Positions 881 through 17,812 of a DNA stretch of 17,812 bases are shown here, piece by piece (position 1 is the stretch's first letter; every line of letters starts with the position of its first letter). Origin of the DNA: Promethearchaeota archaeon (lineage in GTDB: Archaea; Asgardarchaeota; Thorarchaeia; Thorarchaeales; Thorarchaeaceae). Below the pieces are notes generated by a model. That model saw only the letters and a program-made list of their open reading frames with translations, searched no databases and was not told the origin of the DNA. Location of the stretch: assembly GCA_027031765.1 (NCBI GenBank), contig JALVPN010000025.1:1982-19793 (forward strand), read 5' to 3'. The position numbers were made by a program, and so were the translations under genes.

Positions 881-2278
881 TCACAGTACCGGCCACTGGG
901 GCCGGACATCAATGCCAGCCCGTGCGAGCAGCTGTTCGCTGTGTCTGGCTGCGCGTTCACGGATCTGCTCCTCGTCGAGCGTCAGCAGCCGCTTCCCACG
1001 CATCAGGGGCCGCCCATTCACAATCACCGTGTCAACGTAGTGGCCGCAACCGGCATAGACGAGGTTGGACACGGGGTTTGTATTGGGCATCAGGCCGGTC
1101 TGGTCCATGTCGACCAGGACCACATCAGCGAGTTTGCCGGGCTCCAGTGACCCGATGCGGTTGTCAAGACCGAGGGCCCGGGCCCCGCCAAGGGCCGCCA
1201 TTTCGAGCACGGTCTGTGCGTCCATGACGCGCGGGTCGCCTGAGACCGGCTTGTGGATGAGCGCAGCGAGTCGCATCTCGCGCACCACGTCGTAGGTATT
1301 GTTGCTCGGCCCACCATCACACCCCAGAGATACCGGGACGCCGAGCTTGAGCATCAGCGGGACCTTCGCAAAGCCGGAGGCCAGTTTCATGTTGCTGGCG
1401 GGACAGTGCGAGATATTGGTCTGGGTGTCGGCGAGGACTTGCAGCTCTGCATCTTCGAAGTGGACACCATGTGCGAAGACCATGTCCGGACCGAGGAGGC
1501 CCATTTGTTGTGCGAAACCAGTGAGTGACATGCCGTAGTTCTCCCGGACATACCTCACGTCATCGACGACTTCTCCGAGGTGCATTGTCATGCGTGTACC
1601 CCTCGACCGGGCCTCGTGGACCACTGTCCTGAACAGCTCGGGCGTGACCGCACCAAGAGAACGCAGGCCGTACCATACTTGGAGGCGTCCGTCAGCCCTG
1701 TCGTGCCACCTCCGGAACATTGTGTCGGTCTCGCGCAGGCAGGCGTCGGCGTCCTCCACCATGCCCGGGTACATGATGTCAGGACTGTCAGCATAGCCTG
1801 TTGAGTCCATTATGATCTTTGACAGTGCTGCGCGCATGCCCGCCCGTTCCGCTGCCTCTGCGATGCCGTTGAAACCGTACCGTGTGTGTACCATGCACTC
1901 GATGAACGCTGTGGTGCCAGTCCGGATCATCTCGGCCATGCACAGTTCTGCCGACGCCCGGCCATCAGCAGCAGTGAAGTTGCCCTGCAGTACCCAGACG
2001 TAGTCCTTGAGCCAGTCTACGAGGGAGACGTCGTCCGCACAGCTCCGGATCAGTGCTTGCGCCAGGTGGACATGGGCGTCGACCAGACCGGGTATGACGA
2101 GCATGTGGTGGGCATCGATAACGAGCTCTGCACCCCGGTGTACCATGTCCTGACTCCTGGCCACCTCGACAATCTCGGGCCCTTCAATGAACACCGAGCC
2201 GTCTGCAATTATTTCGCGCCTAGGGTTCATGGTCACTACGTAGCCGTTCTTGATGAGTATGGACTCGGGGGTACTCAT
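881..2278 (-). CDS. Metal-dependent amidohydrolase, deaminase type (AtzA/TrzA/SsnA/MTA-SAH deaminase family), 465 aa
   Basis: Motifs IPGLVDAHVH (HxH), MHLGE (HxxE), FAHGVH, HCPASN, LGCDGGPSNN (Asp ligand), GSLEPGKLAD. Start moved from 2401 to ATG 2278 (MSTPESILIKNGYVV), which has GAGGT upstream; the 41-aa extension in the ORF track does not look like part of the family. Confidence 0.92.
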   Translation of the reverse strand: MSTPESILIKNGYVVTMNPRREIIADGSVFIEGPEIVEVARSQDMVHRGAELVIDAHHMLVIPGLVDAHVHLAQALIRSCADDVSLVDWLKDYVWVLQGNFTAADGRASAELCMAEMIRTGTTAFIECMVHTRYGFNGIAEAAERAGMRAALSKIIMDSTGYADSPDIMYPGMVEDADACLRETDTMFRRWHDRADGRLQVWYGLRSLGAVTPELFRTVVHEARSRGTRMTMHLGEVVDDVRYVRENYGMSLTGFAQQMGLLGPDMVFAHGVHFEDAELQVLADTQTNISHCPASNMKLASGFAKVPLMLKLGVPVSLGCDGGPSNNTYDVVREMRLAALIHKPVSGDPRVMDAQTVLEMAALGGARALGLDNRIGSLEPGKLADVVLVDMDQTGLMPNTNPVSNLVYAGCGHYVDTVIVNGRPLMRGKRLLTLDEEQIRERAARHSEQLLARAGIDVRPQWPVL

Positions 2279-2328
2279 CCGCAGGTACCTCTGACAGTTG
2301 CAATGAGAGGGCACCTGCCGCAGGCGTG

Positions 2329-2342
2329 AGATAATGGTTGCG
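2329..2342 (-). promoter_or_regulatory. Weak candidate BRE/TATA for the amidohydrolase gene
   Basis: Minus strand CGCAACCATTATCT about 50 nt upstream of ATG 2278; poor TATA match. Confidence 0.3.
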
Positions 2343-2462
2343 GTACACCGGCACCCGCACCGTACACACTGACAGCCCACACCCAGTCTGGGGCAGCGCA
2401 CTGCCCGGACGCACCGGACAGGACTACACCAGGTGCTCTACCTATACAGTAGGCGACACCGT

Positions 2463-4304
2463 TCAATGGTCATCAGGTGGCGGGACAGTATTGAAGATGA
2501 GTCGGAATGTCAGACCGGACGAGGGGTCGTCACGGATACGGTGGTCAACGTGCAGGGAAACGCCGTACTTGTCAGCCAGGGTGCGGACGATGTGGAGGCC
2601 GACACCACCGAAACGGCGGCCCGTGCTGAACAGGCCCTTGAGGGCCTCACCAGACAGTCCCGGGCCGTTGTCGGAGACCGTGAGCTCGAACAGGCCATCT
2701 TTCACCACACCGTGCACCCAGACGGTGGGGTCGTCACGGGGGTTGTGACGCACCGCATTCTCAAGGATGTTCCAGAGCATCTGGCTGAGGGCGCTGTCGG
2801 CCATGACCCAGACAGTGGGTGCACCGTCATACTTGACGTCCACATCGTACATCTGTCTGATAAGCGAGACCTCGGACTCAAGGACTTCTGTGAGGTTGAC
2901 GGGCTGCATGGGAACTCCCTTGGCCTGCTCGATTGAGCGCACCTTGGCAATCAGGTCGATGCACTTCTGTGCGCCACTACGGACGTACTGCTGGGACGAA
3001 CGGATTGTCTTCTCTGGTGCGTCAGGGTCACACAGGTCGACGCCGGCCATGATGAGCTGGAGCTGGTTACCAATATCGTGTAGCAGGAGGTCCAGCAGGA
3101 ACCGCGCCTCGGCCTCGGCCTGACGGAGCTCGGACACATCTGTGAATATGGCGAAACTGCCCTTGTACCTGTGGTGTGCATCGAACAGTGGTGCTGCACT
3201 GACAACGACCGGGATGAGCCGGCCAGACCTGTGTACGAGCTGGGCGCTGTACCGTTCAGTGATCCCGGCCCTGCGGGCAGCCTGCCGTGCCTGTGACTGT
3301 TCCTCAGTGATGCCGTAGATAATCTCCGTGTCGTGTTTGCTAATCAGGTCGTCGGTAGACGAGTAGCCGAGCATGCGGACAAGGGCGTTGTTGGCATACA
3401 CGAGGGCCCCGTCCTCATCATCGATTGCCAAGCCATCGACCATGGTCTCTACGAGGGACCTGAACTTGTACTCGCTATCTTCTAGGGCACGCTTGCTCTC
3501 TACGGTCTCGGTAATGTCGAGTATCTGCGCAACACTCTTGACCTTACCATCGGAAGTGCGGAGGACTGTGCTGTGGACCTGCACGTAACGTGGCTCACCA
3601 CTACTGTGCATCACGCGGAACTCGTAGACCCGGGGCACCTCCTCACCACGCTGTCGACGCCGGTAGCGGTCTGCAACGAGGGGCACATCATCGGGGTGGA
3701 GGAACTCGCGGAAGTCGTGGCCCAGTACTTCGCGGTGCGTGCGGCCGAGGATATCACAGAAGCGGCTGTTCACGAACTCGAACCGGTAGTCATCGTCCAC
3801 GACTACTATCCCGACATGCGAGTGCTCCACAATCAGCTGGAGGATGTCCGACTTCGCACGCATGCGTTCCTCGACTACCTCACGGCGCGACATGTCCAAC
3901 AAATAGACCATGAAACCCGCCTCAGTACCATGTCCGTCGGGAATCAGCGATGCAAATGCCTCGACGGGCACCTGGACACCGTCGACACGAACAATACGGA
4001 TGGACACCGAGGAGGGGGGCAACCCATCGACGAGGCGGGCAATGCCCGTCCGGACGAAAGACAGGTGTTCTTGAGCAATCAGGCGGTCAAGGGGGACACC
4101 CTTCAGAGAATCGAAGTTGTCGGCACCCAGCAGGTCTAGGGCGGCACTGTTAGCATAGGTGAGGTTCAGGTCCGTATCAAACCCGACCACTGGAAGTGTC
4201 ATCTTGTCAACAACACTCCTTACGGCAAGAAGATTCGGGGGTTCTGGCGCCTCATGTCTATCTGTCATCTCGCTGACCCTGTGTGAGAAGTGGTACAGAT
4301 GCAC
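2463..4304 (-). CDS. Soluble sensor histidine kinase with three PAS domains (start GTG 4304 or ATG 4268)
   Basis: Three PAS-like repeats (YANSAALDLLG, FVNSRFCDILG, YANNALVRMLG) each followed by a PAC-like segment. H-box LLLHDIGNQL, N-box WNILENAVRH, G1 VSDNGPG, G2 GGVGLHIV. No hydrophobic segment and no receiver domain. Confidence 0.92.
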   Translation of the reverse strand: MHLYHFSHRVSEMTDRHEAPEPPNLLAVRSVVDKMTLPVVGFDTDLNLTYANSAALDLLGADNFDSLKGVPLDRLIAQEHLSFVRTGIARLVDGLPPSSVSIRIVRVDGVQVPVEAFASLIPDGHGTEAGFMVYLLDMSRREVVEERMRAKSDILQLIVEHSHVGIVVVDDDYRFEFVNSRFCDILGRTHREVLGHDFREFLHPDDVPLVADRYRRRQRGEEVPRVYEFRVMHSSGEPRYVQVHSTVLRTSDGKVKSVAQILDITETVESKRALEDSEYKFRSLVETMVDGLAIDDEDGALVYANNALVRMLGYSSTDDLISKHDTEIIYGITEEQSQARQAARRAGITERYSAQLVHRSGRLIPVVVSAAPLFDAHHRYKGSFAIFTDVSELRQAEAEARFLLDLLLHDIGNQLQLIMAGVDLCDPDAPEKTIRSSQQYVRSGAQKCIDLIAKVRSIEQAKGVPMQPVNLTEVLESEVSLIRQMYDVDVKYDGAPTVWVMADSALSQMLWNILENAVRHNPRDDPTVWVHGVVKDGLFELTVSDNGPGLSGEALKGLFSTGRRFGGVGLHIVRTLADKYGVSLHVDHRIRDDPSSGLTFRLIFNTVPPPDDH

Positions 4305-4333
4305 TCACACTGCCACTTGAGATTCGGTATACA

Positions 4334-4348
4334 CCTTAATATGTTTTC
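4334..4348 (-). promoter_or_regulatory. BRE/TATA promoter of the histidine kinase gene
   Basis: Minus strand GAAAAC-A-TATTAAGG, 30 nt upstream of GTG 4304. Confidence 0.6.
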
Positions 4349-4435
4349 ATAGCACCACGTATCCCAGATGCGGGTGTGTGGGCACGTCGACTGGGAGCCT
4401 GCAGTGTACCTAGGCAGTACGTATCGGCCGCGTCG

Positions 4436-4450
4436 ACAAGAGATTAAAGG
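4436..4450 (+). promoter_or_regulatory. BRE/TATA promoter of the AOR-1 operon
   Basis: ACAAG-AG-ATTAAAGG about 52 nt upstream of TTG 4503; AGGAG at 4487-4491. Confidence 0.55.
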
Positions 4451-4502
4451 GGGGTGACGTACAGACCATAGTTCTCAGCACGGACAAGGAGTTTCATACA
4501 CA

Positions 4503-4994
4503 TTGGAGCAGGTGATTGTGGTCAGGGCAGAGCTATGTACCGGTTGTCGGGACTGCGAACTGGCGTGTTCGGTCCGACAGACCGGCACATTCAACCCCAG
4601 CAGGTCGAGGGTGCAGGTCATGAAGGACGAGACCACCGGCACCGTCCTGCCAGTACTGTGCCTACAGTGCGATGTCCCACTGTGTCGTCAAGCATGTCCC
4701 GTGGGGGCACTGGTGGAGGGGCCGGGTGGCGCGCTTACCGTGAGGGAGGACAGGTGCATCGGCTGTGGCTCTTGTGTTACAGCGTGTGTATATGGTGGGA
4801 TTGAGCTGGACCCAAAGACACGGCTCGCTGTCAAGTGTGACCTGTGTGGTGACGGCCCACCGGCATGCGTGGCCGCCTGTGAGTATGGGGCCCTCGAGCT
4901 ACAGGAGCGGGACAGGGGGCTTGTCGGACGACTTGACGGCGTCCGCACGGTCATGCGGGCGTACGGTGTTGGAGAGGAGGCGGTACGCAATTGA
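4503..4994 (+). CDS. 4x[4Fe-4S] electron-transfer protein (DmsB/CooF-like; probable AOR small subunit), 163 aa
   Basis: Four Cys groups: CTGCRDCELAC, CLQCDVPLCRQACP, CIGCGSCVTAC, CDLC..CVAAC. TTG start is the first start after an in-frame TGA at 4455. Its stop overlaps the AOR-1 start (TTGA). Confidence 0.93.
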   Translation: MEQVIVVRAELCTGCRDCELACSVRQTGTFNPSRSRVQVMKDETTGTVLPVLCLQCDVPLCRQACPVGALVEGPGGALTVREDRCIGCGSCVTACVYGGIELDPKTRLAVKCDLCGDGPPACVAACEYGALELQERDRGLVGRLDGVRTVMRAYGVGEEAVRN

Positions 4995-6940
4995 CGTTCC
5001 CATACAAGGGGTATGCAGGGAGGTACGTCGAGGTAGACCTGGGCTCACAGGACGTGAGCATAAAGGAGATGCGGAAGGACTGGGCACTGTACTACCTTGG
5101 CGGGACGGGCGTTGCAGCAAGGGTGTTGTGGGACAGGACGGGCCCCGACACTGCACCGCTCTCGCCTGACAGCGTGCTGGTCGTTGGGACAGGACCGCTC
5201 ACCGGGGTGATGTTCTCACCAGCAGGCCGGATGATGTTCGCTGCGAGGAGCCCGCTCACCGGGGTGTGGGGCGAGAGCCATGTCGGTGGGTTCTTTGGCC
5301 CCGAGATGAAGTTTGCCGGTTTCGACATGGTCGTGATAACCGGCCGGGCGGAGCACCCGGTCTACCTCCTGTTGCGGGACGGACACGCTGAGCTCCGTGA
5401 TGCCCGGCACCTGTGGGGCCGTGAGACCGACACGGTGACGTACATGCTCAGGGAGGAGCTCGGTGACCCGACCGTTGAGACCGCCGTGATTGGGCCTGCC
5501 GGGGAGAACCTTGTGGCATACGGTGCTGTGATAGTGGACATGTACCGTGCGGCAGGCCGCACCGGGATGGGCACGGTAATGGGCTCCAAGAACCTGAAGG
5601 CGGTGGTGGCCAGTGGCAGCCTGGGCCTTGAGGCACATGACATGGACGCTTACCTCAGGGCGAATGAGGTGGAGCTGCAGAGGCTCCGGGACCCACTGTG
5701 GGAGGCGTCCCTGGGCTCGCTCCGCAAGTACGGCACTACCGACCTCGTGGCGATAATCAATGAGATTGGACGGCTGCCGACGAAGAACCACTGGACCGGT
5801 TACTTTGAACGTGCCGACGAGATAGGGCCCGAGGCGATAGCGGAGAGGTACCGGCTGGCACAGGAGGCCTGTTTTGGCTGTCTGATAGGGTGCAAGTACG
5901 TGTACCGTATTGATAGTGGACGGTACCGCAGTGGGCCTGCTGGCGGGCCGGAGTACGAGACCCTGATGGCCTTTGGGTCGAACTGTCTGAACGCAGACCT
6001 CGAGTCCGTGATCTATCTGGGCCACAGGTGCGACCTGCTGGGGATGGACACCATTTCGTGTGGCAAGACAATCGGGTTCGCGATGGAGCTCTGGGAGAAG
6101 GGACTCCTGACGGCGGAGGACACCGGGGGCCTCGACCTCTCGTGGGGCAACACGGAGACGATGGCGGAACTTGTGGAACTGATTGCAAGGCGTGAGGGTA
6201 TTGGCGACCTGCTCGCGCGTGGTGTGAGGGAGGCTGCCGAGACTGTTGGTGGTGATGCGTGGAAGTACGCAGTCCACGTCAAGGGCCTTGAGGCATCCGG
6301 GCAGGACCCCAGGGCCCACCAGTCGATTGGACTCACCTATGCCACCAATGTCCGCGGTGCTGACCACCTGCGCAGTCTGTCAAGCCTTGAGGAGCTCGGG
6401 TACCCGGAGATTGTCATCCAGCGCTTCGGCAAGGAGAAGGCGGACGGGATCCTCGACATCATGTCACCACTGTACAAGGGCGAGCTGATAAAGGACGTTG
6501 AAGACCTGTACGCGCTCGTGGACTCGGCGGTGATATGCAAGTATGGTACCATGTGGCCGCCCGTATACTACTTCGACACGTTCACCAACATCATCCCGCC
6601 ACTGACCGGTATGACGGAGTGGGGCGACATGGCCTTCGTCCGCAGCGCTGCAGAGAGGACCTGTCACCTGCGACGCGCATACAACCACAGGCTGGGCCTG
6701 ACACGGGAGCACGAGACCCTGCCGAAGAGGCTGTTGGAGGAGCCAATGCCCACCGGGCCGGCCAAGGGTGGCCTGCCAGACCTCGACGTGATGCTTGACG
6801 AGTACTACCAGTACAGGGGTTGCGACAGGACGACAGGCCTCCCACTCCGCGGCACACTGGAACGGCTCGGCCTCTCAGACATTGCTGACGACCTTGAGAG
6901 GAGGGGCGTGCTCGCAGGCGGGCCGTCAGATACCTCATGA
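4991..6940 (+). CDS. aor: Tungstopterin aldehyde:ferredoxin oxidoreductase family protein (AOR-1), 649 aa
   Basis: RSPLTGVWGESHVGG, GRTGMGTVMGSKNLKAV, Fe-S motif CFGCLIGC plus distal Cys (VICKYG), GPEYET, CDLLGMDTIS, DPR, RGADH. Substrate not assignable. Confidence 0.95.
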   Translation: MTFPYKGYAGRYVEVDLGSQDVSIKEMRKDWALYYLGGTGVAARVLWDRTGPDTAPLSPDSVLVVGTGPLTGVMFSPAGRMMFAARSPLTGVWGESHVGGFFGPEMKFAGFDMVVITGRAEHPVYLLLRDGHAELRDARHLWGRETDTVTYMLREELGDPTVETAVIGPAGENLVAYGAVIVDMYRAAGRTGMGTVMGSKNLKAVVASGSLGLEAHDMDAYLRANEVELQRLRDPLWEASLGSLRKYGTTDLVAIINEIGRLPTKNHWTGYFERADEIGPEAIAERYRLAQEACFGCLIGCKYVYRIDSGRYRSGPAGGPEYETLMAFGSNCLNADLESVIYLGHRCDLLGMDTISCGKTIGFAMELWEKGLLTAEDTGGLDLSWGNTETMAELVELIARREGIGDLLARGVREAAETVGGDAWKYAVHVKGLEASGQDPRAHQSIGLTYATNVRGADHLRSLSSLEELGYPEIVIQRFGKEKADGILDIMSPLYKGELIKDVEDLYALVDSAVICKYGTMWPPVYYFDTFTNIIPPLTGMTEWGDMAFVRSAAERTCHLRRAYNHRLGLTREHETLPKRLLEEPMPTGPAKGGLPDLDVMLDEYYQYRGCDRTTGLPLRGTLERLGLSDIADDLERRGVLAGGPSDTS

Positions 6941-6950
6941 GGGGGGCACC

Positions 6951-8069
6951 GTGGCAGACCTCAGCGTTACCGTTGCTGGCCTGACGTTCAGGAACCCCGT
7001 GCTCACGGCGGCCGGCCCCACTTCAAGGGACGGCGCGACACTCATGAGGGCGGCCGCTGGGGGCGCTGGCGGTCTCGTCACCAAGACCGTGAGCACCCGG
7101 CCTGCAGAGGTACCAAGACCGAACATGGCGGCCCTTGAGCCCGGTGCGGGGGGCCTCAGGAAGGGGCTGCTCAACGCAGAGCTGTGGAGCGAGCTCCCTG
7201 TGGAGAGGTGGCTGGAGTCCGAGTATAGGGCGGCCCTGAGCACCGGGCTGACCGTAGTCGCGAGCATCGGGTACACCCCCGAAGAGGTCACAGCGCTCGC
7301 GCCCAGGGTGGTGGAGACCGGCGTCCATGCACTTGAGTTCAGCACGCACTATGTGGGCGGACATGCTGAGATAGCACGGGCACTCAGGGACGCCGTGGAT
7401 GTGCCCATCTTTGCAAAGCTCAGTCCGCATGTGGACGTCGTTGCCACTGCGCGTGCGGTGGAGGAGTATGTGGACGGCATCGTTGCGGTCAACACCTACG
7501 GGCCATGTCTTAGGATTGACATCGAGACGGCAACGCCAGTCCTCGGTGGGCCGGGGGGGCGCGGGTGGATGAGCGGGTCCGCACTACGACCAATCGCGCT
7601 CAGGTGTGTGGCTGACATAGCGCTGGCTGTGGACATCCCGGTGGTCGGTGTGGGCGGTGTCACCACTGGTGAGGATGCCATCGAGTTCTTCATGGCTGGT
7701 GCGTCAGCAGTACAGGTGTGTACGGCAGCGGTCACGTACGGGGACGGGGTCTACGGCCGCATTGCACAGCAGATCAGTGACTGGCTCGACAGTCACGGCT
7801 ACGACTCTGTTGACGACATCCGCGGGGCAGCACTGGAACACCTCGACCGTGGTGTGACGCTCAGCCCGCCACCAAGGGTGGACATGGAGCTGTGCACTCT
7901 GTGCGGTCTGTGTGCTAGGACATGTGTGTACGGCGCCGTCCTCGTCGACAGGGAGGCGCACGAGCTGCGCATAGACCCCGGGCGCTGTCAGGCATGTGGC
8001 ATGTGCATATCGGTCTGTCCCCACAGGGCACTGGGTGGCGTCACCATGGCCACACATGAGGACAGGTGA
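6951..8069 (+). CDS. PreA/dihydropyrimidine dehydrogenase- or DHODH-like FMN TIM barrel with a C-terminal 2x[4Fe-4S] domain and an atypical active-site loop, 372 aa
   Basis: FRNPVLTAAGP, GGLVTKT, LNAEL, FAKLSP, DGIVAVNT, MSGSALRPIALR, GVGGVTTGEDAIEFFMAGASAVQV; C-terminal CTLCGLCARTC and CQACGMCISVCP. Start set at GTG 6951, after GAGGGGGG and 10 nt past the AOR-1 stop. Confidence 0.88.
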   Translation: MADLSVTVAGLTFRNPVLTAAGPTSRDGATLMRAAAGGAGGLVTKTVSTRPAEVPRPNMAALEPGAGGLRKGLLNAELWSELPVERWLESEYRAALSTGLTVVASIGYTPEEVTALAPRVVETGVHALEFSTHYVGGHAEIARALRDAVDVPIFAKLSPHVDVVATARAVEEYVDGIVAVNTYGPCLRIDIETATPVLGGPGGRGWMSGSALRPIALRCVADIALAVDIPVVGVGGVTTGEDAIEFFMAGASAVQVCTAAVTYGDGVYGRIAQQISDWLDSHGYDSVDDIRGAALEHLDRGVTLSPPPRVDMELCTLCGLCARTCVYGAVLVDREAHELRIDPGRCQACGMCISVCPHRALGGVTMATHEDR

Positions 8070-8208
8070 CCAGCACCGGGTACCGACCGTACCGGCAGGA
8101 CACAGGGCAGCAGGCCATCAGGTTGGTTGTACAGACGCGGCAGCCCACTCTGGGTCCATGTGCGGCCTGCTATCTGTCGGTGTGTCCGTGGGCACCTGTG
8201 GCGGGCCC

Positions 8209-9393
8209 CTATACGAACTGGACATCGTCGAGGCCGCTGGTGAGCCTCTCTGCACGCCTCCCGCTTACCACATAGTCGTTCTCAATCCTGACACCGCCGA
8301 CCTGACGCAGGTAGACCCCCGGCTCCACAGCCAGGACATGACCACGCTCCAGGCGGTCCGAGTACCTGTAGAAGGTCGGGAGCTCGTGGACGAACAGGCC
8401 GATGCCGTGGCCCAGGCTGTGGGTCATGCCCTCCTCGGCACGCGGGTTCAGGCGTGTTGAGTCGAAACCGTATCGTCTGAGGGTGTCATAGCAGGCCATA
8501 TTGACCTCATCCATAAGTGCGCCCTCGGAGAGTGCGTCGGCAGCGGCACTGTGTGCCTCACTGACCGCATCGAACATCCTGCGGAGCTCAGGGGGGACAC
8601 TACCACGGACAACAGTCCGTGTGACATCAGCCACGTATCGTTCCAGCTTCAGGCGCGGGAACACATCTATTATGATGGGCACCTCTGCGTGGAGTCTGTC
8701 ATCAGGCGAGCCGAGGTAGTGCCAGTCGAAGCCGAGGCGGCCGACAGCAACTATTGTGTCCTCTGCGGTCTCGGCACGGCGGTCGAGCAGGAAGTGGTCG
8801 AGGGCACTCTTGATGTCACCAACAGTGAGTGGCTGGCCGTCGCGCAGCAGGACCTTGTTGGGGCCGACGGTCGTCTCGGCAATCAGGTCGATGACATGCT
8901 GGACCGCCCCGATGGTCGCCCTGCCCGCCTTCCGGATCATCTCGACCTCGCGCGGTGACTTTGTGGCGCGGGCCTCTGTGAGCAGGTAGGGCACCACCTT
9001 GACCTTATAGCCGAGGTCCTGGAGCGCAACAAGGATGTGGGCCGGCAGGTGCGTGGGGACACCTATCACATCACCTGAGAAGAGCTCTTTCAGCACACTA
9101 CCAAAGACGGCAGCAGGGTCGTCCATCAGGCGTTTGTTCTCGGCTATCAGCTGCAGCATTATCTCGCTGGTGTCAAAGGTCCTGCGGACAGTGCTCTCTT
9201 TTCGGACCCTCTCAAGAGTGTTGAAGCCCGCTGCCACGACCGTGTCCTCGCCACGGTTGCGCAGGACTATGACCTCGTCGCTTGAACGGAAGCCCGTGAG
9301 CCAGAACACGTCAGGTGTCGTAAAGGCGTTCCCGTACATGAGGACAGCGTCAATGCCCGCCTCCTCCATGAGCCTGTCCAGGTCTTCAATCAC
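8209..9393 (-). CDS. M24B metallopeptidase (Xaa-Pro aminopeptidase/prolidase family), about 394 aa
   Basis: Metal ligands D (IIDVFP), D (YVADVTRT), H (HSLGHGIG), E (AVEPG), E (VRIEND), with an N-terminal creatinase-N-like domain. Start chosen at GTG 9393 (GGTGGA upstream, TATA-like element at 9442-9435) rather than 9483. Confidence 0.9.
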   Translation of the reverse strand: MIEDLDRLMEEAGIDAVLMYGNAFTTPDVFWLTGFRSSDEVIVLRNRGEDTVVAAGFNTLERVRKESTVRRTFDTSEIMLQLIAENKRLMDDPAAVFGSVLKELFSGDVIGVPTHLPAHILVALQDLGYKVKVVPYLLTEARATKSPREVEMIRKAGRATIGAVQHVIDLIAETTVGPNKVLLRDGQPLTVGDIKSALDHFLLDRRAETAEDTIVAVGRLGFDWHYLGSPDDRLHAEVPIIIDVFPRLKLERYVADVTRTVVRGSVPPELRRMFDAVSEAHSAAADALSEGALMDEVNMACYDTLRRYGFDSTRLNPRAEEGMTHSLGHGIGLFVHELPTFYRYSDRLERGHVLAVEPGVYLRQVGGVRIENDYVVSGRRAERLTSGLDDVQFV

Positions 9394-9434
9394 AGTGTCC
9401 ACCACAGCAGGTTGCGGCCACCCAGACCGGGGGG

Positions 9435-9449
9435 TATCAAAAGTGTTTC
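9435..9449 (-). promoter_or_regulatory. Candidate BRE/TATA for the M24 peptidase gene
   Basis: Minus strand GAAAC-AC-TTTTGATA about 42 nt upstream of GTG 9393. Confidence 0.4.
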
Positions 9450-9525
9450 TCTCGGGGCCTGAAAAGGCCACATACAGCATCACCCCATAGGACGAAACCT
9501 TCTCCCAGTCGGCCCTGACGGGCAG

Positions 9526-10413
9526 TCACAGGTAGGGGGCCATGCGTTGCTCGACATCATCACGTGATGGCACCACATACGGGCCGACCGTTTCAAGGTT
9601 GAAGGAGGCACAGGTCGCGCCGAAGAGGGCGGCCCGCCAGAGGTCATGGGTCATGGAGTACTCGACCAGCAGGCCGACCATATAGGTATCACCGCAGCCT
9701 GTGGCATCGACCACACGACGTGGGGGCACTGCCGGGATGTCCAGCCTCTCGTCGGCAGTGAACAGAGTGGAGCCCCTACGCTCTCTTGTCACGACAATGA
9801 TAGAGGGGCCAAGAGAGAGCAGGTACTCGACAGCTCCCGACTCGGAGCCACAGCCGGTGGAGAGCAGCAGTTCGTCCTCGTCAGCCTTCACCACGTCGAC
9901 GAGCGGCAGGTACTCCTCACGGTGCGGCCATTGGCCGTACACCACAGACCTGCCGTGGGCCGTACGGACGAAGCCCTGCACATCAAGGGAAACGAGGGCT
10001 CCGGAGCGACGCGCGCGTCTCAGACATGTGACACTGACCTCGTGGGCAGTGATGGGACAGAAGTGGACGCAGCTGGCGGAGAGGTGTCTGTCGGTCAGGT
10101 CTGTGGGGCGGACTGGGGGCGCCACTGCTTCGAGGCGCTGTAATCTCCTGCCAGAGGCATCGTACTCGTTCACGAAACGGGTGGTGTGGGGGCCCTCTAT
10201 GGTCATGCCACTGAGGTCGAGGCCGGAGGAACGCAGGGCGCGGGTGTACTCCTCCTCGAAGTCCAAGCCGACCTTGGTGACCACGGCCGTACCGGAGGTA
10301 CCGACCGCAGGGCCGAGCATGGCATAGGCGGGCCCGCCGCCGAGGACCTCGCGACGGAAGGTGGGTGTGATGACGAGGTCACGGCTCAGGTGTCCTACGA
10401 CGGTCAGGTCCAT
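9526..10413 (-). CDS. PfkB/ribokinase-family carbohydrate or nucleoside kinase, 295 aa
   Basis: N-terminal VVGHLSRD, LGGGPAY, VKADEDE, and the C-terminal anion-hole signature VDATGCGDTY. Confidence 0.92.
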   Translation of the reverse strand: MDLTVVGHLSRDLVITPTFRREVLGGGPAYAMLGPAVGTSGTAVVTKVGLDFEEEYTRALRSSGLDLSGMTIEGPHTTRFVNEYDASGRRLQRLEAVAPPVRPTDLTDRHLSASCVHFCPITAHEVSVTCLRRARRSGALVSLDVQGFVRTAHGRSVVYGQWPHREEYLPLVDVVKADEDELLLSTGCGSESGAVEYLLSLGPSIIVVTRERRGSTLFTADERLDIPAVPPRRVVDATGCGDTYMVGLLVEYSMTHDLWRAALFGATCASFNLETVGPYVVPSRDDVEQRMAPYL

Positions 10414-10823: not shown

Positions 10824-12212
10824 ATGAAGGGGCATGTCGACCTGGTGGTCAGGGATGCAAGGCTCCTGCTCGAGTCGGGACTGGTACGGGGGGGCGTTGC
10901 CGTCATGGACGGGAGGATATGCGCGGTCGCCACAGACGAGCACCTGCCGCCGGCGGACACCACCGTTGATGGACGCGGACGCATCCTGATGCCGGGCCTG
11001 ATTGACGCACACGCACACATCCACGACCCCGCAGCCCTTGACCACGAAGACTTCACCACCGGCTCAAGGGCGGCCGCTGCCGGCGGGGTGACCACGGTAA
11101 TAGACATGCCACTGACAAGCCAGCTCGACACTGTTGAGGCCCTCGAACAGCGCGTCAGGACAGGCGAGGAGATGTCCATTGTAGACTTTGGGCTCTACGC
11201 CGGGATGATGAGGCACGACAACGTGGCCATCATACCGCAGATGCTCGGACACGGAGTGGGCGGCTTCAAGGCGTTCACGTGCGAGCCGTACCGGGTAGAC
11301 TCGGGGGTCATCATGCGCCTGCTGAGTGAGGTCTCTGAGCACGGCGGACACCTCACTGTCCACGCTGAGGACCAGGGCGTGCTCGATGAGTTCGGTAGGG
11401 ACATGGACGGCGAGTGGGACGCACCGGTGAGCCATGCCCTCTCAAGGCCCGAGATAGCAGAACAGCTGGCAGTGCACGGGGTCATTGCCATTGCGAGGGC
11501 CACGGGCGGTCATGTCCACATAGCCCACGTGACCACACGTGGTGGCCTCCGCGAGGTGGAGCTGGGGCGGCTGCATGGGGTCAGGGTGACGACCGAGGTC
11601 TGTCCGCACCACCTTGTGTTCGACCGTGACCAGATGAACCGTTTCGGGCCGGTCAGCAAGATGACCCCACCGCTGAGGTCCAGGGAGGACAGGGCAGCGC
11701 TGTGGTCGGGCCTCCTCATGGGCTCGGTCAACATTGTAGTGAGCGACCACGCACCCTGCCCCCCTGACGAGAAGGAGGCCGGTCGGGACGACATCCGGGA
11801 GGCGTGGGCCGGTGTTGACGGTGTCCAGATGATACTGCGCGTCCTGCTGTCAGAGGGCATCAACAGGGGACGGTTGTCATTTGGGAGGCTGCTGCGTGCC
11901 ACTACACGTGACCCGGCCCGGCTCTTTGGCCTGTACCCGAAGAAGGGTGCCATCCGTGTCGGTGCAGATGCAGACCTTGTGCTCGTCGACCCCACGCTGG
12001 AACAGAAGGTCACGGCGGACATGATGTTCTCCAAGTGTGGCTGGACACTGTACGAGGGGCTGGTGATGAAGGGGGCGCCCGTGATGACATTTGTCCGTGG
12101 AGTCCCTGTCTTCGAGGACGACCGTACGACCGTAGCCCCAGGACACGGGCGCTTCCAGCCTGCGGGGTCGGGACTGACACGCGCCATGGGCCAGCCGGAT
12201 GTCCACCCGTGA
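10824..12212 (+). CDS. Cyclic amidohydrolase (allantoinase/hydantoinase/dihydroorotase family), 462 aa
   Basis: PGLIDAHAH, AAAGGVTTVIDMP, carbamylated-Lys strand GFKAF, HAED, HIAH, EVCPHHL, PPLR, SDHAP, GAIRVGADADLV; GAGGAGG upstream of the ATG. Confidence 0.93.
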   Translation: MKGHVDLVVRDARLLLESGLVRGGVAVMDGRICAVATDEHLPPADTTVDGRGRILMPGLIDAHAHIHDPAALDHEDFTTGSRAAAAGGVTTVIDMPLTSQLDTVEALEQRVRTGEEMSIVDFGLYAGMMRHDNVAIIPQMLGHGVGGFKAFTCEPYRVDSGVIMRLLSEVSEHGGHLTVHAEDQGVLDEFGRDMDGEWDAPVSHALSRPEIAEQLAVHGVIAIARATGGHVHIAHVTTRGGLREVELGRLHGVRVTTEVCPHHLVFDRDQMNRFGPVSKMTPPLRSREDRAALWSGLLMGSVNIVVSDHAPCPPDEKEAGRDDIREAWAGVDGVQMILRVLLSEGINRGRLSFGRLLRATTRDPARLFGLYPKKGAIRVGADADLVLVDPTLEQKVTADMMFSKCGWTLYEGLVMKGAPVMTFVRGVPVFEDDRTTVAPGHGRFQPAGSGLTRAMGQPDVHP

Positions 12213-15194: not shown

Positions 15195-15258
15195 GCTGTA
15201 GATACCTCCTCTCTGACTGTCCAAGACGTAGCCCCCGCCTGTGGCCACATGGTAGTCC

Positions 15259-15273
15259 ACATATAGAGTACTG
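15259..15273 (-). promoter_or_regulatory. Weak candidate TATA for the opine dehydrogenase-B12 protein operon
   Basis: Minus strand CAGTACT-CTATATGT about 65 nt upstream of GTG 15194. Confidence 0.3.
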
Positions 15274-15571
15274 GTCACACTCAACCGGGGGCCAGTGGAC
15301 GTAGGTTCGTTGCTCGCCAATGCCACGCCATCACACAGGGGCGTGGTGGACTGTCTGTGCTACTCTCTCTTGCTCGCTTGCGACACTCATACTACATTCT
15401 CGTGCTGTCCTTATGAGTATTGCGAAGGGCTTGCTGGGGCACATTGGGCAGGCCTGGACAAGGACAACACCACCCGGTAGAGGTGTGATGTGGCGTCCAA
15501 CACTGGAGGACACCACGCAGCCCCACCGCTGACCAAGGGCACAGACCCTGGCAGGACAGTCCTCCGGAGCC

Positions 15572-15586: not shown

Positions 15587-15644
15587 GAGGGTGCCCAGAG
15601 GGCTGGGTCTACCTACAGTGACCCACAGAGTGGATGAGCACGAG

Positions 15645-16136
15645 ATGACAGGACTGCCCTTTGTGTTTGGCGACCCCCACGTGTGTACAGGTTGCATGAT
15701 CTGTGTCAGTGTCTGCAGCATGCACTACTACAGGGTGATAAGTCCGGAGCGCTCGCGGGTCAGAGTGGTCAGACTGGAAGGGGGCCTTGACTTCCCGCTG
15801 TTCTGTCGCAACTGTGAGGACGCCCCGTGTATCGAGGCATGCCCCGAGGACGCACTGGCCAGGACATCGAAAGGGGTGATAGTGGTGAACAGCCGCAGGT
15901 GTACAGGCTGTGGCAGTTGCGTCAGTGCATGTCCGTACTATGCTATCAGGGTCAACCCTGACACTGGGAAGGCCTTCAAGTGCATCCAGTGTGGCGAGTG
16001 CACGGCATGGTGTCCTGTAGGTGCGATATGGATGACCACAGGTGCAGACCTTGAGAAACGCGACCCCGATGGTAGGCTCCGTGGACTGTACGAGCTCCAC
16101 GCCAGTGAGATATACGACAAGGGGGAGGTACAGTGA
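15645..16136 (+). CDS. 4x[4Fe-4S] electron-transfer protein (probable AOR small subunit), about 163 aa
   Basis: CTGCMICVSVC, CRNCEDAPCIEACP, CTGCGSCVSACP, CIQCGECTAWCP. Start ATG 15645 (GTG 15630 is an alternative). Its stop overlaps the AOR-2 start (GTGA). Confidence 0.93.
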   Translation: MTGLPFVFGDPHVCTGCMICVSVCSMHYYRVISPERSRVRVVRLEGGLDFPLFCRNCEDAPCIEACPEDALARTSKGVIVVNSRRCTGCGSCVSACPYYAIRVNPDTGKAFKCIQCGECTAWCPVGAIWMTTGADLEKRDPDGRLRGLYELHASEIYDKGEVQ

Positions 16137-17812
16137 AGGGTGTCGGTGGCACAGTACTGTGGGTCGACCTGACCCGGCGAGAGATAGAGCGGCGCCCACT
16201 GGACGAGGGTATTGTCCGGGAATACCTGCTCGGTGCAGGGTACCTGTCCCGACTGTTGTACGACCTCATCCCAGAGGACACGGACCCCCTGTCCCCACGG
16301 AACGTGCTCGGCATTGCCACCGGGCTCCTCACAGGCTCGATGTTCCCACAGTCATCAAGGCATGTGGTCGCAGCACTGTCACCGCTGACAGACATATGGG
16401 GCGAGAGCCATGCGGCTGGGTTCTGGGGCGCAGAGCTCAAGCTCGCCGGGTACGATGCCATACTGTTCACAGGCGCGGCGTCGGGGCCGGTGTACCTGGA
16501 CATCCATGACGATGATGTTGCGCTGCTGGACGCCTCAGACCTGTGGGGCTGCGATGTCTTCGAGACCGACAGGCGCCTGCGCAGGCGTCACGGCAGGGCG
16601 TGCAGGGTCCTTGCTATCGGACAGGCGGGCGAGAACCTTGTGAGGTTCGCTGCAATAATGAACGACAGGGACAGGGCCTCTGCCAGATCCGGGCTTGGTG
16701 CCGTGATGGGGTCGAAGCGCCTGAAGGCGGTCTGTGTGCGGGGCACCGGCAAGATCGAGGTCGCCGAGCCGGAGGACTATCTCAGGCACATGTGGGGTCT
16801 CCACAGGCGGATGCTGGCGAACCCGTTCACGGCCGGCCGTGCAGAGTATGGGACGACAGGCCTCATCGAGCTGATGCAGCATATCGGGAGGCTCCCCAGC
16901 TACAACATGCGCCAGGGCGTGTTCGAGGGCGCTGACAGGATAGGTGGCCACGCCATCAACGAGAAGTACCTCGTCAAGCCGCGGGCCGACTGGTGCTGCC
17001 TGCAGAGGTGTGGCAGGTACACGGCCGTCCGGGAGGGGCCCTACAGGTACGAGGGCGGCTCCCCAGAGTTCGAGTCCCAGTCGTCACTTGGCTCCCGTTG
17101 TGGCAACGACAACCTCGAGTCGATACTCTATGCCCACCACCTTGCCAACATGTACGGCATGGACACGATTTCCCTTGGGGCGACAATATCGTGGGCGATG
17201 GAGGCGTGGGACGAGGGCCTGCTCACAGAGGAGGACACGGGTGGCCTCGACCTCTCATGGGGCAACCACGAGGTGATAGTCGGGCTGACCCGCATGATTG
17301 CGTTCCGTGAGGGCTTCGGCGACCTCCTTGCAGAGGGCAGCTACCGTGCGGCCCAGCGCATCGGCCGGGGCACAGAGAGGTTCGTGATGGCGGTCAAGAA
17401 GCAGGAAATCGCAGGTCAGGAACCAAGGGCACAGAAGTCGATGGGGCTGGCGGCAGTGACGGCAGCACGTGGGGCCGACCACCTCTATGGGTTCCCGGTC
17501 CTGGACGAGGTGGGCTTCGACGATGAGATAAAGGAGCGGTACGGGGAGGAGTACCTGCCCGAGATGGCAGACAGGCTGAGCCCACGCCACAAGGGGGTGA
17601 TGGTAGAGATGTCGGAGAACTTCATGGTGGTAGTGGAGAGCGTAGGCGTCTGCAAGTACGGCACGCAGATACCGCCGGAGTTCTACTATGACGACATCGC
17701 CCTGGCACTCAGGGTGCACAACGGGCTGCAGTTTACAGCGGAGGAGCTCGAGACCATTGGCAAGAGGATAGTGAACCTGAACCGGTTGTTCAACGTACGC
17801 AGGGGCGTACGA
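16133..17812 (+). CDS. aor: Tungstopterin aldehyde:ferredoxin oxidoreductase family protein (AOR-2), truncated at the window edge (560 codons seen)
   Basis: Manual translation open from GTG 16133 (GGAGGT upstream) to the window end: MKGVGGTVLWVDLT..., LSPLTDIWGESHAAG, RSGLGAVMGSKRLKAV, DWCCLQRC, SPEFES, NMYGMDTIS, EPR, RGADHL, GVCKYGT. Absent from the ORF track. Confidence 0.95.
   Translation, partial: MKGVGGTVLWVDLTRREIERRPLDEGIVREYLLGAGYLSRLLYDLIPEDTDPLSPRNVLGIATGLLTGSMFPQSSRHVVAALSPLTDIWGESHAAGFWGAELKLAGYDAILFTGAASGPVYLDIHDDDVALLDASDLWGCDVFETDRRLRRRHGRACRVLAIGQAGENLVRFAAIMNDRDRASARSGLGAVMGSKRLKAVCVRGTGKIEVAEPEDYLRHMWGLHRRMLANPFTAGRAEYGTTGLIELMQHIGRLPSYNMRQGVFEGADRIGGHAINEKYLVKPRADWCCLQRCGRYTAVREGPYRYEGGSPEFESQSSLGSRCGNDNLESILYAHHLANMYGMDTISLGATISWAMEAWDEGLLTEEDTGGLDLSWGNHEVIVGLTRMIAFREGFGDLLAEGSYRAAQRIGRGTERFVMAVKKQEIAGQEPRAQKSMGLAAVTAARGADHLYGFPVLDEVGFDDEIKERYGEEYLPEMADRLSPRHKGVMVEMSENFMVVVESVGVCKYGTQIPPEFYYDDIALALRVHNGLQFTAEELETIGKRIVNLNRLFNVRRGVR

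What the first reader, a model, noticed from the sequence alone, without database searches (positions are those of the whole stretch)
4503..8069. PreA-like subunit wired to a tungsten AOR instead of PreT/PyrK
Seen: the Fe-S protein overlaps AOR-1 (TTGA) and the PreA-like gene starts 10 nt after the AOR-1 stop. No NAD(P)H-binding GltD/PreT or PyrK gene is in the window. Established: bacterial PreA receives electrons from PreT. Inference: the three proteins may form a W-pterin to 4x[4Fe-4S] to 2x[4Fe-4S] to FMN wire that couples low-potential aldehyde oxidation to ring or C=C reduction, or runs in reverse.
Basis: inference. Interest (0 to 1): 0.6.

Follow-up and report, generated by a model that had tools for sequence, protein, structure and literature searches.

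The report
Tungsten enzyme paired with purine-ring reductase
In this Asgard archaeon a flavin ring-reducing enzyme of the type bacteria use to break down uric acid without oxygen is always encoded next to a tungsten enzyme and its iron-sulfur wire, where bacteria have a molybdenum xanthine dehydrogenase, so the tungsten enzyme may have a job not yet described.

Summary
A 4x[4Fe-4S] polyferredoxin (4503-4994) overlaps an AOR-family gene (4991-6940) by ATTGA. A DPD/PreA-like FMN + 2x[4Fe-4S] gene (6951-8069) starts 10 nt after the AOR stop. No PreT/PyrK is linked.

The order is conserved: 65 of 68 archaeal loci with enough flank (Asgard lineages, Bathyarchaeota, Korarchaeia-type Thermoproteota, Nitrososphaeria) have the AOR orthologue upstream on the same strand. 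The two genes co-occur across 201 Asgard genomes.

The interpretation needs correcting in three ways.
- The flavoprotein is not a PreA. It lacks the catalytic Cys loop (EFSTHY). It is 47% identical to bacterial proteins that sit between SsnA and a selenium-dependent xanthine dehydrogenase, the "UacX" position of the 2025 reductive uric-acid pathway.
- Ferredoxin-type input without PreT is already known (PydAc, UacX).
- AOR plus polyferredoxin stands where Xdh stands in bacteria. Xdh-family genes were found in 1 of 61 genomes of this family. The AOR has a changed second shell (Tyr427 to Gln).

Whether the three proteins form one physical complex, and what the tungsten site oxidises, is untested.

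This scan noted the same island earlier on other DNA (e1-5424345, e1-5448417).

The parts
4503..4994 (+). AorA/WorS-like polyferredoxin, 163 aa, 4x[4Fe-4S]. The start may be GTG 4512 or 4518.
   Evidence: Fer4 families. Best solved relatives are AorA 8c0z_C (E 3.6e-28), WorS 9mqx_E and the WOR5 small subunit. All 16 Cys are invariant in 29 orthologues. A C-terminal helix 136-153 is predicted only at low confidence.
4991..6940 (+). AOR-family tungstopterin subunit (AOR1), 649 aa. Its TTG start overlaps the stop of the polyferredoxin gene.
   Evidence: AFOR_N and AFOR_C. Best solved relatives are WorL 9mqx_D (1e-126), P. furiosus AOR 1aor (1e-125) and AorB 8c0z_A (1e-113). The cluster Cys CxxCxxxC...C, Thr243, Glu313 and His448 equivalents are kept. 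Tyr427 is Gln. GADHLRS and CKYGTMWPP motifs are conserved in about 65 orthologues.
6951..8069 (+). UacX-type (DPD domain IV+V-like) FMN + 2x[4Fe-4S] ring reductase, 372 aa, without the catalytic Cys loop.
   Evidence: DHO_dh plus Fer4. The PreA model scores 190.8, below the 335 cut-off. AF2 gives pLDDT 95 and Foldseek finds pig DPD at TMq 0.82. The loop reads EFSTHYVGGH against DPD ELNLSCPHGMG.... It is 47% identical to the protein between SsnA and Se-XDH in L134.
881..2401 (-). TRZ/ATZ-family amidohydrolase or deaminase, a conserved member of the island.
   Evidence: Amidohydro_1, with best NCBIfam hit 5'-deoxyadenosine deaminase at 412 bits, below the 522 cut-off. Present in 45 related loci.
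2463..4304 (-). PAS-domain histidine kinase, divergently placed upstream of the three-gene unit.
   Evidence: PAS plus HATPase_c. The position is conserved in Thorarchaeota loci.
8209..9483 (-). M24 (creatinase/prolidase-like) hydrolase, a conserved neighbour.
   Evidence: Peptidase_M24 plus Creatinase_N. Present in 50 related loci.
9526..10413 (-). PfkB-family kinase, a conserved neighbour.
   Evidence: PfkB. Present in 42 related loci.
10824..12212 (+). Cyclic amidohydrolase (allantoinase/hydantoinase/HyuA-like).
   Evidence: TIGR03178 scores 349.9 against a 357.85 cut-off. It is 31% identical to E. coli HyuA. Present in 35 related loci.
15591..16136 (+). Second polyferredoxin (FeS2), overlapping AOR2.
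   Evidence: Fer4 families. The FeS2-AOR2 pair follows the hydantoinase gene directly in other Thorarchaeota.
16133..17812 (+). Second AOR-family gene (AOR2), cut by the window end.
   Evidence: AOR model NF007354. Orthologues are 74-81% identical in the same island position. The first cluster Cys is Asp, and Gln stands at the Tyr427 position.

Best explanation
The three genes are the redox core of a conserved archaeal island for anaerobic, reductive breakdown of an oxopurine-type N-heterocycle.

The 'PreA-like' protein is a UacX-type reductase. An FMN TIM barrel reduces the ring and a C-terminal pair of [4Fe-4S] clusters receives single low-potential electrons. It has no NAD(P)H module.

The AorA-like polyferredoxin and the AOR-family tungsten subunit form an AorAB/WorSL-type pair. 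In archaea this pair occupies the place that the selenium/molybdenum xanthine dehydrogenase holds next to UacX in bacteria.

Most likely electrons leave the tungsten site through its own [4Fe-4S], run along the four clusters of the polyferredoxin, and enter the two clusters and the FMN of the reductase. The reductase would then act as the terminal 'cap' in place of AorC or BfuABC. The reduced ring is then opened by the SsnA-like and hydantoinase-like amidohydrolases of the island.

Shown: the cofactor-binding motifs, the folds, the conserved gene order and co-occurrence, the kinship with proteins in the UacX position, and the absence of PreT and Xdh.

Inferred: a physical complex, the direction of electron flow, and the identity of both substrates.
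For: Gene order. 65 of 68 loci with at least 2 kb upstream keep FeS-AOR1-reductase on one strand, and 28 have a gap of 40 nt or less. The junctions overlap in Hermod-, Nitrososphaeria- and Thermoproteota-type loci.

Co-occurrence in 201 Asgard genomes. Both genes are in f1 (41/43 each) and f12 (15/19 and 14/19). Neither is in f9 (0/40), f22 (0/10) and others.

Solved relatives. AorA, WorS, AorB and WorL are the nearest structures. In AorABC the polyferredoxin is known to wire the W subunit to a flavoprotein cap (PMC10413684), and in WorABCSL to BfuABC (PMC12318220).

Reductase. AF2 gives pLDDT 95 with DPD domains IV+V at TMq 0.82.

UacX kinship. Relatives at 41-53% identity with the same E-x-S-T-H-Y loop lie beside SsnA, Xdh, YgeW/X/Y, YqeA and HyuA. 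In L134 the order is YgeX, SsnA (684 bits), homologue (47% identical, 3e-124), Se-XDH (1410 bits). The tree places a 99* clade in which 23 of 29 rows are AOR-linked archaeal proteins as sister to a 98* Xdh/SsnA-linked clade.

Xdh and AOR. They never share a locus. MoCoBD_1 was found in 0 of 1 own genome and in 1 of 61 genomes of the family.

Island partners. SsnA-like, carbamoyltransferase and hydantoinase genes are adjacent in Hermod and Nitrososphaeria loci, and are present elsewhere in this genome.

Other input modules. No PreT is linked. The GltD-like genes belong to other modules.
Against: No complex was predicted or observed.

In many Thorarchaeota a ClC-CBS channel gene or other genes (0.5-4 kb) lie between AOR1 and the reductase. 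In a Baldrarchaeota locus AOR1 is on the other strand. Tight coupling is therefore not obligatory.

WOR5-type WorSL enzymes work with soluble ferredoxin, and UacX and PydAc accept ferredoxin or methyl viologen, so a soluble carrier would suffice.

No fused AOR- or AorA-reductase protein was found (weak evidence).

In this window no SsnA gene is adjacent. The SsnA-like gene is on another contig and scores below the family cut-off (330 against 455).

UacX itself (Q181U4) was not compared directly.

The tree is the quick version, because the careful search did not finish.
Confidence: 0.6

Rival explanations
1. Same pathway, but no dedicated wire. AorA-like/AOR1 and the UacX-type reductase are separate enzymes that each exchange electrons with the soluble ferredoxin pool. 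The gene linkage reflects co-regulation within the island only.
For: ClC-CBS or other genes are inserted between the two genes in many Thorarchaeota. AOR1 is on the opposite strand in Baldrarchaeota. PydAc and UacX work with ferredoxin or viologen in vitro (PMC7332683, PMC12507026). WOR5-type WorSL has no third subunit. No fusion proteins were found.
Against: The junctions overlap or are 0-5 nt in all non-Thorarchaeota lineages. In TACK-type loci the reductase is sandwiched between two FeS-AOR pairs. Phyletic co-occurrence is near perfect. In solved cases polyferredoxin subunits of this type connect the W subunit to a partner (PMC10413684, PMC12318220).
Confidence: 0.3
2. It is an ordinary PreA (uracil/thymine reductase) whose PreT partner is encoded elsewhere or was missed in the incomplete assembly.
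For: The best NCBIfam hit by E-value is PreA (3.4e-56). The genome is a 95%-complete MAG in 229 contigs. Two GltD-like genes exist.
Against: The PreA score is 190.8 against a 335 cut-off. The catalytic Cys loop and Asn668 equivalent are absent in the whole subfamily. Both GltD-like genes sit in other modules. No PreT is in any of 80 related loci. The Cys-loop PreA types form a separate 100* clade.
Confidence: 0.03
3. The chain runs in reverse. The flavoprotein oxidises a dihydro-heterocycle and the electrons drive acid-to-aldehyde reduction at the tungsten site.
For: AORs can reduce acids with low-potential donors (PMC9295118, PMC12096430). DHODH-family enzymes are reversible.
Against: From general knowledge, the acid/aldehyde couple (about -0.58 V) lies far below dihydro-pyrimidine-type couples, so this direction is strongly uphill. 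The island is catabolic, with ring-opening amidohydrolases and carbamoyltransferases. Bacterial relatives act as reductases (PMC12507026).
Confidence: 0.03

Closest known systems
UacX of Clostridioides difficile (UniProt Q181U4), the FAD-less PydA homologue that, with SsnA, reduces and opens 2,8-dioxopurine ('yanthine') (Li et al. 2025, PMC12507026; preprint 10.1101/2025.05.19.654654)
   Same: It has a DHO_dh FMN barrel with ferredoxin-type clusters and no FAD/NAD(P)H domain. It sits in an island with SsnA-type, HyuA-type and carbamoyltransferase genes. Metagenomic proteins in exactly the UacX position are 41-53% identical and share the Cys-less E-x-S-T-H-Y loop.
   Different: The archaeal clade is linked to polyferredoxin plus AOR-family tungsten enzymes instead of Xdh. 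In this window SsnA is not adjacent. Q181U4 itself was not aligned here. The substrate is untested.
AorABC of Aromatoleum aromaticum (PDB 8c0z; PMC10413684) and WorABCSL of Acetomicrobium mobile (PDB 9mqx; PMC12318220)
   Same: An AorA/WorS-type 4x[4Fe-4S] subunit plus an AorB/WorL-type W subunit are the nearest solved relatives. A flavoprotein gene follows in the operon.
   Different: The third gene is not AorC (FAD, NAD) or BfuABC but an FMN + 2x[4Fe-4S] ring reductase. The W subunit has Gln for Tyr427, Asp for Cys447 and a remodelled C-K-Y-G-T-M-W-P-P segment. It is archaeal, whereas the N and BF types are reported only from Bacteria (PMC12318220, section 5).
PydAc, ferredoxin-dependent dihydropyrimidine dehydrogenase of Clostridium chromiireducens (PMC7332683)
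   Same: An FMN domain with ferredoxin domains and no FAD/NADPH domains, taking low-potential one-electron donors.
   Different: PydAc is described as a uracil reductase of Pyd clusters. The protein here lacks the DPD catalytic loop and lies in a purine-type island. Its extra clusters are on a separate AorA-like subunit attached to a W enzyme.
PreA/PreT (E. coli) and mammalian DPD (PDB 1h7w, 1gte)
   Same: The fold of DPD domains IV and V (TMq 0.82). Lys574, Lys709, Asn609, Glu611, Asn736 and Thr737 equivalents are kept.
   Different: There is no PreT. The active-site loop is about 15 residues shorter, without Asn668 or Cys671. It scores below the PreA family cut-off.

Membership tests
PreA / dihydropyrimidine dehydrogenase (PydA) | FMN-binding DHO_dh TIM barrel followed by a 2x[4Fe-4S] domain | tested here: met
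   Pfam DHO_dh 2.2e-34 plus Fer4. 8 Cys are invariant. AF2 and Foldseek match DPD at TMq 0.82.
PreA / dihydropyrimidine dehydrogenase (PydA) | Active-site loop E-x-N-x-S-C-P with catalytic Cys (DPD Cys671) and Asn668 | tested here: not met
   The loop reads E-F-S-T-H-Y-V-G-G-H and is about 15 residues shorter. S-T-H-Y is invariant in the subfamily.
PreA / dihydropyrimidine dehydrogenase (PydA) | Curated family score (NF006183 PreA equivalog, cut-off 335 bits) | tested here: not met
   190.8 bits.
PreA / dihydropyrimidine dehydrogenase (PydA) | Adjacent or cognate PreT/GltD-type NAD(P)H-FAD subunit | tested here: not met
   None in the window or in 80 related loci. The genome's two Fer4_20 genes belong to other modules. 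The MAG is 95% complete.
UacX (FAD-less PydA homologue of the reductive uric-acid pathway) | PF01180 protein without a FAD/NAD(P)H domain | tested here: met
UacX (FAD-less PydA homologue of the reductive uric-acid pathway) | Sequence kinship with proteins encoded between SsnA and Xdh in uricolytic clusters | tested here: met
   47% identity (3e-124) to the L134 protein flanked by SsnA (684 bits against a 444 cut-off) and Se-XDH (1410 against 830). 12 Xdh-linked relatives are 35-50% identical, and 10 of them show the E-x-S-x-H-Y loop. Q181U4 itself was not compared.
UacX (FAD-less PydA homologue of the reductive uric-acid pathway) | Neighbourhood with SsnA, HyuA, YgeW/UacY, YgeY, YgeX | tested here: inconclusive
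   The window has a HyuA-like gene (31% identical) and a TRZ/ATZ hydrolase but no SsnA. The SsnA-like gene (330 bits, below the cut-off) and two carbamoyltransferases are on other contigs. In 15 archaeal loci an SsnA-like gene is adjacent.
UacX (FAD-less PydA homologue of the reductive uric-acid pathway) | Reduces 2,8-dioxopurine with a low-potential donor, coupled to SsnA | not testable with these tools
   This is a biochemical assay.
AorABC / WorSL-type multisubunit tungsten aldehyde oxidoreductase | W subunit with AFOR_N and AFOR_C, CxxCxxxC...C cluster ligands and pterin-binding D-x-x-G-x-D motifs | tested here: met
AorABC / WorSL-type multisubunit tungsten aldehyde oxidoreductase | Small polyferredoxin subunit with four [4Fe-4S] motifs encoded directly upstream | tested here: met
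   16 Cys are invariant. The best solved relatives are AorA and WorS. The stop and start overlap.
AorABC / WorSL-type multisubunit tungsten aldehyde oxidoreductase | [quoted passage not shown] | tested here: not met
   Thr, Glu and His are kept. Tyr427 is Gln in AOR1 and AOR2 and in all their orthologues examined.
AorABC / WorSL-type multisubunit tungsten aldehyde oxidoreductase | Third subunit AorC (FAD, NAD-binding) or BfuABC module | tested here: not met
   No such gene is in the island. The third gene is the FMN/Fe-S reductase.
AorABC / WorSL-type multisubunit tungsten aldehyde oxidoreductase | C-terminal helix of AorA that mediates filament formation | tested here: inconclusive
   A 25-30 residue tail is present in all orthologues. 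AF2 predicts helix 136-153, but the model is poor (pLDDT 62).
AorABC / WorSL-type multisubunit tungsten aldehyde oxidoreductase | Oxidises aldehydes | not testable with these tools
   This is a biochemical assay.

The most novel reading that the evidence does not exclude
AOR1 (and its island paralogues AOR2 and AOR3) may not be aldehyde oxidoreductases. They may be tungsten-dependent purine hydroxylases/dehydroxylases that replace the Se/Mo xanthine dehydrogenase (XdhD/DOPDH) in archaea. Their polyferredoxin subunits would join them electrically to the UacX-type reductase. Electrons released by hydroxylating one ring position would then be spent on dehydroxylation and ring reduction within one self-contained machine. 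This would be the first AOR-family enzyme acting on an N-heterocycle, and a tungsten route for anaerobic purine breakdown in Asgard and TACK archaea.
Probability: 0.3. Interest if true: 0.9.

Novelty: new variant of a known kind. Interest (0 to 1): 0.7.

Why it matters
If the module works as read, it matters in three ways.
- It adds a fifth subunit architecture to the AOR/WOR tungsten enzymes: a polyferredoxin nanowire capped by a substrate-reducing flavoprotein rather than by an NAD- or ferredoxin-reducing module.
- It extends the reductive purine pathway, described in 2025 in gut bacteria, to uncultured Asgard and TACK archaea of anoxic sediments.
- It raises a concrete, testable question. 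In genomes that have the ring reductase and the ring-opening hydrolases but no xanthine dehydrogenase family member, does a tungsten AOR-family enzyme take over purine hydroxylation or dehydroxylation?

Either answer is informative. One gives new tungsten chemistry. The other gives a direct enzymatic link between aldehyde oxidation and dearomatisation. It would also assign a role to two of the many unassigned AOR paralogues in Asgard genomes.

Tried and rejected
Contexts of distant relatives were taken from the genome search, the fetch from genomes and a metagenome scan instead.
- A search for longer, fused forms of the flavoprotein found nothing. This is weak evidence.
- E. coli YgfK was compared as a validated 2,8-dioxopurine reductase. 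It is only remotely similar (E 0.002) and says nothing about the loop.
- The supplement of Li et al. held no UacX sequence or alignment, so Q181U4 was not compared directly.
- The AF2 model of the polyferredoxin was poor (pLDDT 62) and cannot settle the filament helix.
- The careful ML tree did not finish in 300 s, so the quick tree is reported.
- More distant 'ELVSY'-loop relatives in an Asgard genome (L116, L118, L120) have no AOR nearby, so the AOR link is not a property of the whole Cys-less superfamily.
- Considered and rejected: a biosynthetic DHODH, because PyrD+PyrK+PyrB lie on C217.
- Considered and rejected: a PreT on another contig, because both GltD-like genes are committed to other modules.
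- Literature searches for AOR with DPD or DHODH partners found nothing.

Full report
**1. What is in the sequence**

- ORF 4503-4994 encodes 163 aa with four Cys motifs of the CxxCxxCxxxC kind (16 Cys). Its TGA lies inside ...AATTGA..., whose TTG (4991) starts the 649-aa AOR-family ORF.
- The AOR-family ORF ends at TGA 6938-6940.
- Ten bases later, after a G-rich run, a GTG at 6951 opens a 372-aa ORF ending at 8069.
- The longer TTG-6795 reading of that ORF overlaps the AOR gene. Homologues that all begin M-A/x-D-L-x-V argue against it.

Pfam gives Fer4 families, AFOR_N + AFOR_C, and DHO_dh + Fer4 respectively. The start of the first gene is uncertain by up to five codons (GTG 4512 or 4518).

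**2. No NAD(P)H module**

The window is part of a 19.8-kb contig of a 2.95-Mb MAG. The MAG has 229 contigs and is 95% complete.
- The genome has one more DHODH-family gene, a normal PyrD with PyrK and PyrB on C217.
- Two genes carry the PreT/GltD Fer4_20 domain.
- One follows a PyrK-like NfnA next to NuoF-like and FdhA/NuoG-like genes. The other is a 918-aa HdrA-like protein followed by HdrC/B-like genes, beside a divergent 733-aa AOR, a Bam-like set.
- Neither is a plausible PreT for this protein.

**3. The gene order is conserved**

A scan of one genome per species returned 80 loci encoding relatives at 51-68% identity. All are archaeal: Thor-, Hermod-, Baldr-, Odin- and Promethearchaeota, Bathyarchaeota, a Korarchaeia-type Thermoproteota, Nitrososphaeria and Geothermarchaeota.
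- Of 68 loci with at least 2 kb upstream, 65 have the AOR1 orthologue (51-75% identical) upstream on the same strand, preceded by the polyferredoxin.
- Two of the three exceptions have only 2.1-2.4 kb of flank. In the third (Baldrarchaeota) AOR1 is present but inverted.
- In 28 loci the gap is 40 nt or less. Outside Thorarchaeota the genes overlap or are 0-5 nt apart in all but two loci, and the reductase is often followed by a second FeS-AOR pair.
- In many Thorarchaeota 0.5-4 kb is inserted between AOR1 and the reductase. The insert is one or two ClC chloride-channel genes with CBS domains, or unrelated genes. It is never a PreT.
- Across 201 sampled Asgard genomes the two genes share the same phyletic pattern. 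Family f1 has 41/43 each, f12 has 15/19 and 14/19, and the large families f9, f22 and others have neither. Related genomes are not independent, so this describes a pattern and is not a statistical test.

**4. The tungsten pair**
- The nearest solved structures of the large subunit are WorL of A. mobile (9mqx, 1e-126), P. furiosus AOR (1e-125) and AorB (8c0z, 1e-113).
- The nearest for the small subunit are AorA (3.6e-28), WorS and the WOR5 small subunit.
- In AorABC the polyferredoxin forms a conducting chain from the W subunits to an FAD cap (PMC10413684). In WorABCSL it leads to a BfuABC 'plug' (PMC12318220).
- Neither that paper's typing of its clade (types BF, N, M, U) nor a 2025 review of AOR subtypes (PMC12096430, section 7) lists an FMN/DHODH-like partner.
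- AOR1 keeps the cluster Cys, the pterin motifs and the Thr243, Glu313 and His448 equivalents. It has Gln for Tyr427, which the review names as one of four conserved second-shell residues.
- It also has Asp for Cys447, Leu for AorB Tyr468, Tyr for Phe511, and a C-K-Y-G-T-M-W-P-P insertion. These changes are conserved in about 65 orthologues, and Gln is also conserved in AOR2.
- AOR1 is therefore a distinct orthologous group, not a generic AOR.

**5. The flavoprotein**
- It folds with high confidence (pLDDT 95) into DPD domains IV+V (TMq 0.82 to pig DPD).
- It keeps DPD Lys574, Asn609, Glu611, Lys709, Asn736 and Thr737.
- The mobile loop that carries Asn668 and the catalytic Cys671 is replaced by a short E-F-S-T-H-Y-V-G-G-H.
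- It scores 190.8 against the PreA cut-off of 335.
- A library-wide search shows a large family of such short-loop, Cys-less proteins. Classical N-x-S-C-P proteins appear only at about 35% identity.
- Family members are fused to GltD-like or to FrhB-like modules in some organisms, so the electron-input module is interchangeable.

**6. What the family does elsewhere**

Two 2025 papers describe an anaerobic purine pathway in bacteria (10.1101/2025.05.19.654654 = PMC12507026; 10.1101/2025.04.24.650524).
- An Xdh homologue makes 2,8-dioxopurine.
- A flavoenzyme (YgfK, or in C. difficile the FAD-less PydA homologue UacX) reduces the ring.
- SsnA and HyuA open the rings.
- YgeW, YgeY, YgeX and YqeA finish the pathway.

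Notes of this scan on other genomes had called the archaeal protein 'UacX-type', and I tested that. A metagenome scan seeded with non-Asgard members of the Cys-less family was probed with the E. coli uricolytic proteins taken from NC_000913.
- Relatives at 41-53% identity to the window protein, all with the E-(L/I/F)-S-(T/S/A)-H-Y loop, lie beside SsnA and Xdh and with YgeW, YgeX, YgeY, YqeA and HyuA.
- In L134 the order is xanthine permease, diaminopropionate ammonia-lyase (675 bits), SsnA (684, cut-off 444), the homologue (47% identical, 3e-124), selenium-dependent xanthine dehydrogenase (1410, cut-off 830). That is the UacX position.
- A quick ML tree puts 23 AOR-linked archaeal proteins in a clade of 29 rows (SH-aLRT 99). 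This clade is sister to the Xdh/SsnA-linked clade (98). Cys-loop proteins lie outside (100).

**7. AOR stands where Xdh stands**
- Xdh and AOR never occur in the same locus: 12 Xdh loci against 4 AOR loci in the metagenome set, and no Xdh in the 80 archaeal loci.
- The Xdh Mo-binding domain was not found in this genome. It was found in only 1 of 61 genomes of its family, as a marginal fragment. About 95% of those genomes carry the reductase.
- The rest of the pathway set is present. Hermod and Nitrososphaeria loci carry SsnA-like genes (380-396 bits), one or two carbamoyltransferases, a hydantoinase and, in Nitrososphaeria, a PALP-family enzyme in the same cluster.
- This genome has the hydantoinase in the window, an SsnA-like gene on C214 and two carbamoyltransferases on C199.
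- A second, paralogous adjacency exists in another Asgard genome: nucleoside-binding PnrA, amidohydrolase, a DHODH-like protein without the Fe-S domain, and an AOR.

**8. Reading**

The data support a conserved redox module in which an AorAB-type tungsten enzyme is functionally tied to a UacX-type ring reductase.

AorA-type subunits do exactly this in solved complexes. Dearomatisation of the purine is reported as unfavourable with NAD(P)H alone (PMC12507026).

Three points remain open.
- A physical complex is inferred, not shown. The Thorarchaeota insertions show that tight coupling is dispensable.
- The donor substrate is unknown.
- The replacement of Xdh, the two or three distinct AOR paralogues per island and the altered active-site shell allow the bolder reading that these AORs act on the purine itself. 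The kept catalytic Glu and His, and 45-50% identity to broad-range AORs, argue for ordinary aldehyde chemistry.

I put the functional coupling at about 0.8, a direct complex at about 0.5, and purine chemistry at the W site at about 0.3.

**9. Novelty**

Ferredoxin-type DPD relatives (PydAc, UacX) and AOR nanowires with exchangeable caps are known. Their combination was not found in the papers searched, nor was its archaeal distribution or the apparent substitution of Xdh. I class it as a new variant of a known kind. The same island was already noted by this scan on other DNA.

Noticed in passing
L021:5072-6943; L025:3120-4979 and 5124-6953 (relatives of window 6940-6951): In many Thorarchaeota one or two ClC chloride-channel genes with CBS domains are inserted, on the same strand, between the AOR1 and reductase genes. 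This window has none.
   Followed up: partly
window 12367-15326: The B12-mutase-like and opine-dehydrogenase gene pair is an insertion into the island in this genome. In other Thorarchaeota the hydantoinase gene is followed directly by FeS2-AOR2.
   Followed up: partly
window 16133-17812 and orthologues: AOR2 has Asp in place of the first [4Fe-4S] Cys (D-[WF]-x-C-L-Q-R-C). In most orthologues examined it has S-P-E-[FY]-E for G-P-E-Y-E. It has Gln at the Tyr427 position.
   Followed up: partly
G000:C109 (L101:1210-7795): A divergent 733-aa AOR-family gene faces a 918-aa HdrA/GltD-like flavoprotein followed by HdrC- and HdrB-like (CCG) genes. This layout resembles class II benzoyl-CoA reductase (Bam).
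   Followed up: no
L117 (G004:C38:11000-21391), 3694-9958: A paralogous module in another Asgard genome: PnrA/Bmp nucleoside-binding protein, amidohydrolase, a 316-aa DHODH-like protein without Fe-S domain, then an AOR 38-40% identical to AOR1 and AOR2.
   Followed up: partly
P0212, P0268 (library proteins): Relatives of the reductase are fused to F420-hydrogenase beta-subunit (FrhB) domains. This suggests F420-dependent versions of the same ring reductase.
   Followed up: no
P0138/P0314 (library proteins): A member of the Cys-less family (loop E-L-S-T-Q-H-L) is recorded from the eukaryote Tritrichomonas musculus, a gut parabasalid.
   Followed up: no
L088:885-14645: A Nitrososphaeria locus holds the fullest version of the island in one string: two carbamoyltransferases, a hydantoinase, FeS-AOR1-reductase-FeS-AOR3, a TRZ/ATZ hydrolase, a threonine-synthase-like PLP enzyme and an SsnA-like gene.
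   Followed up: partly
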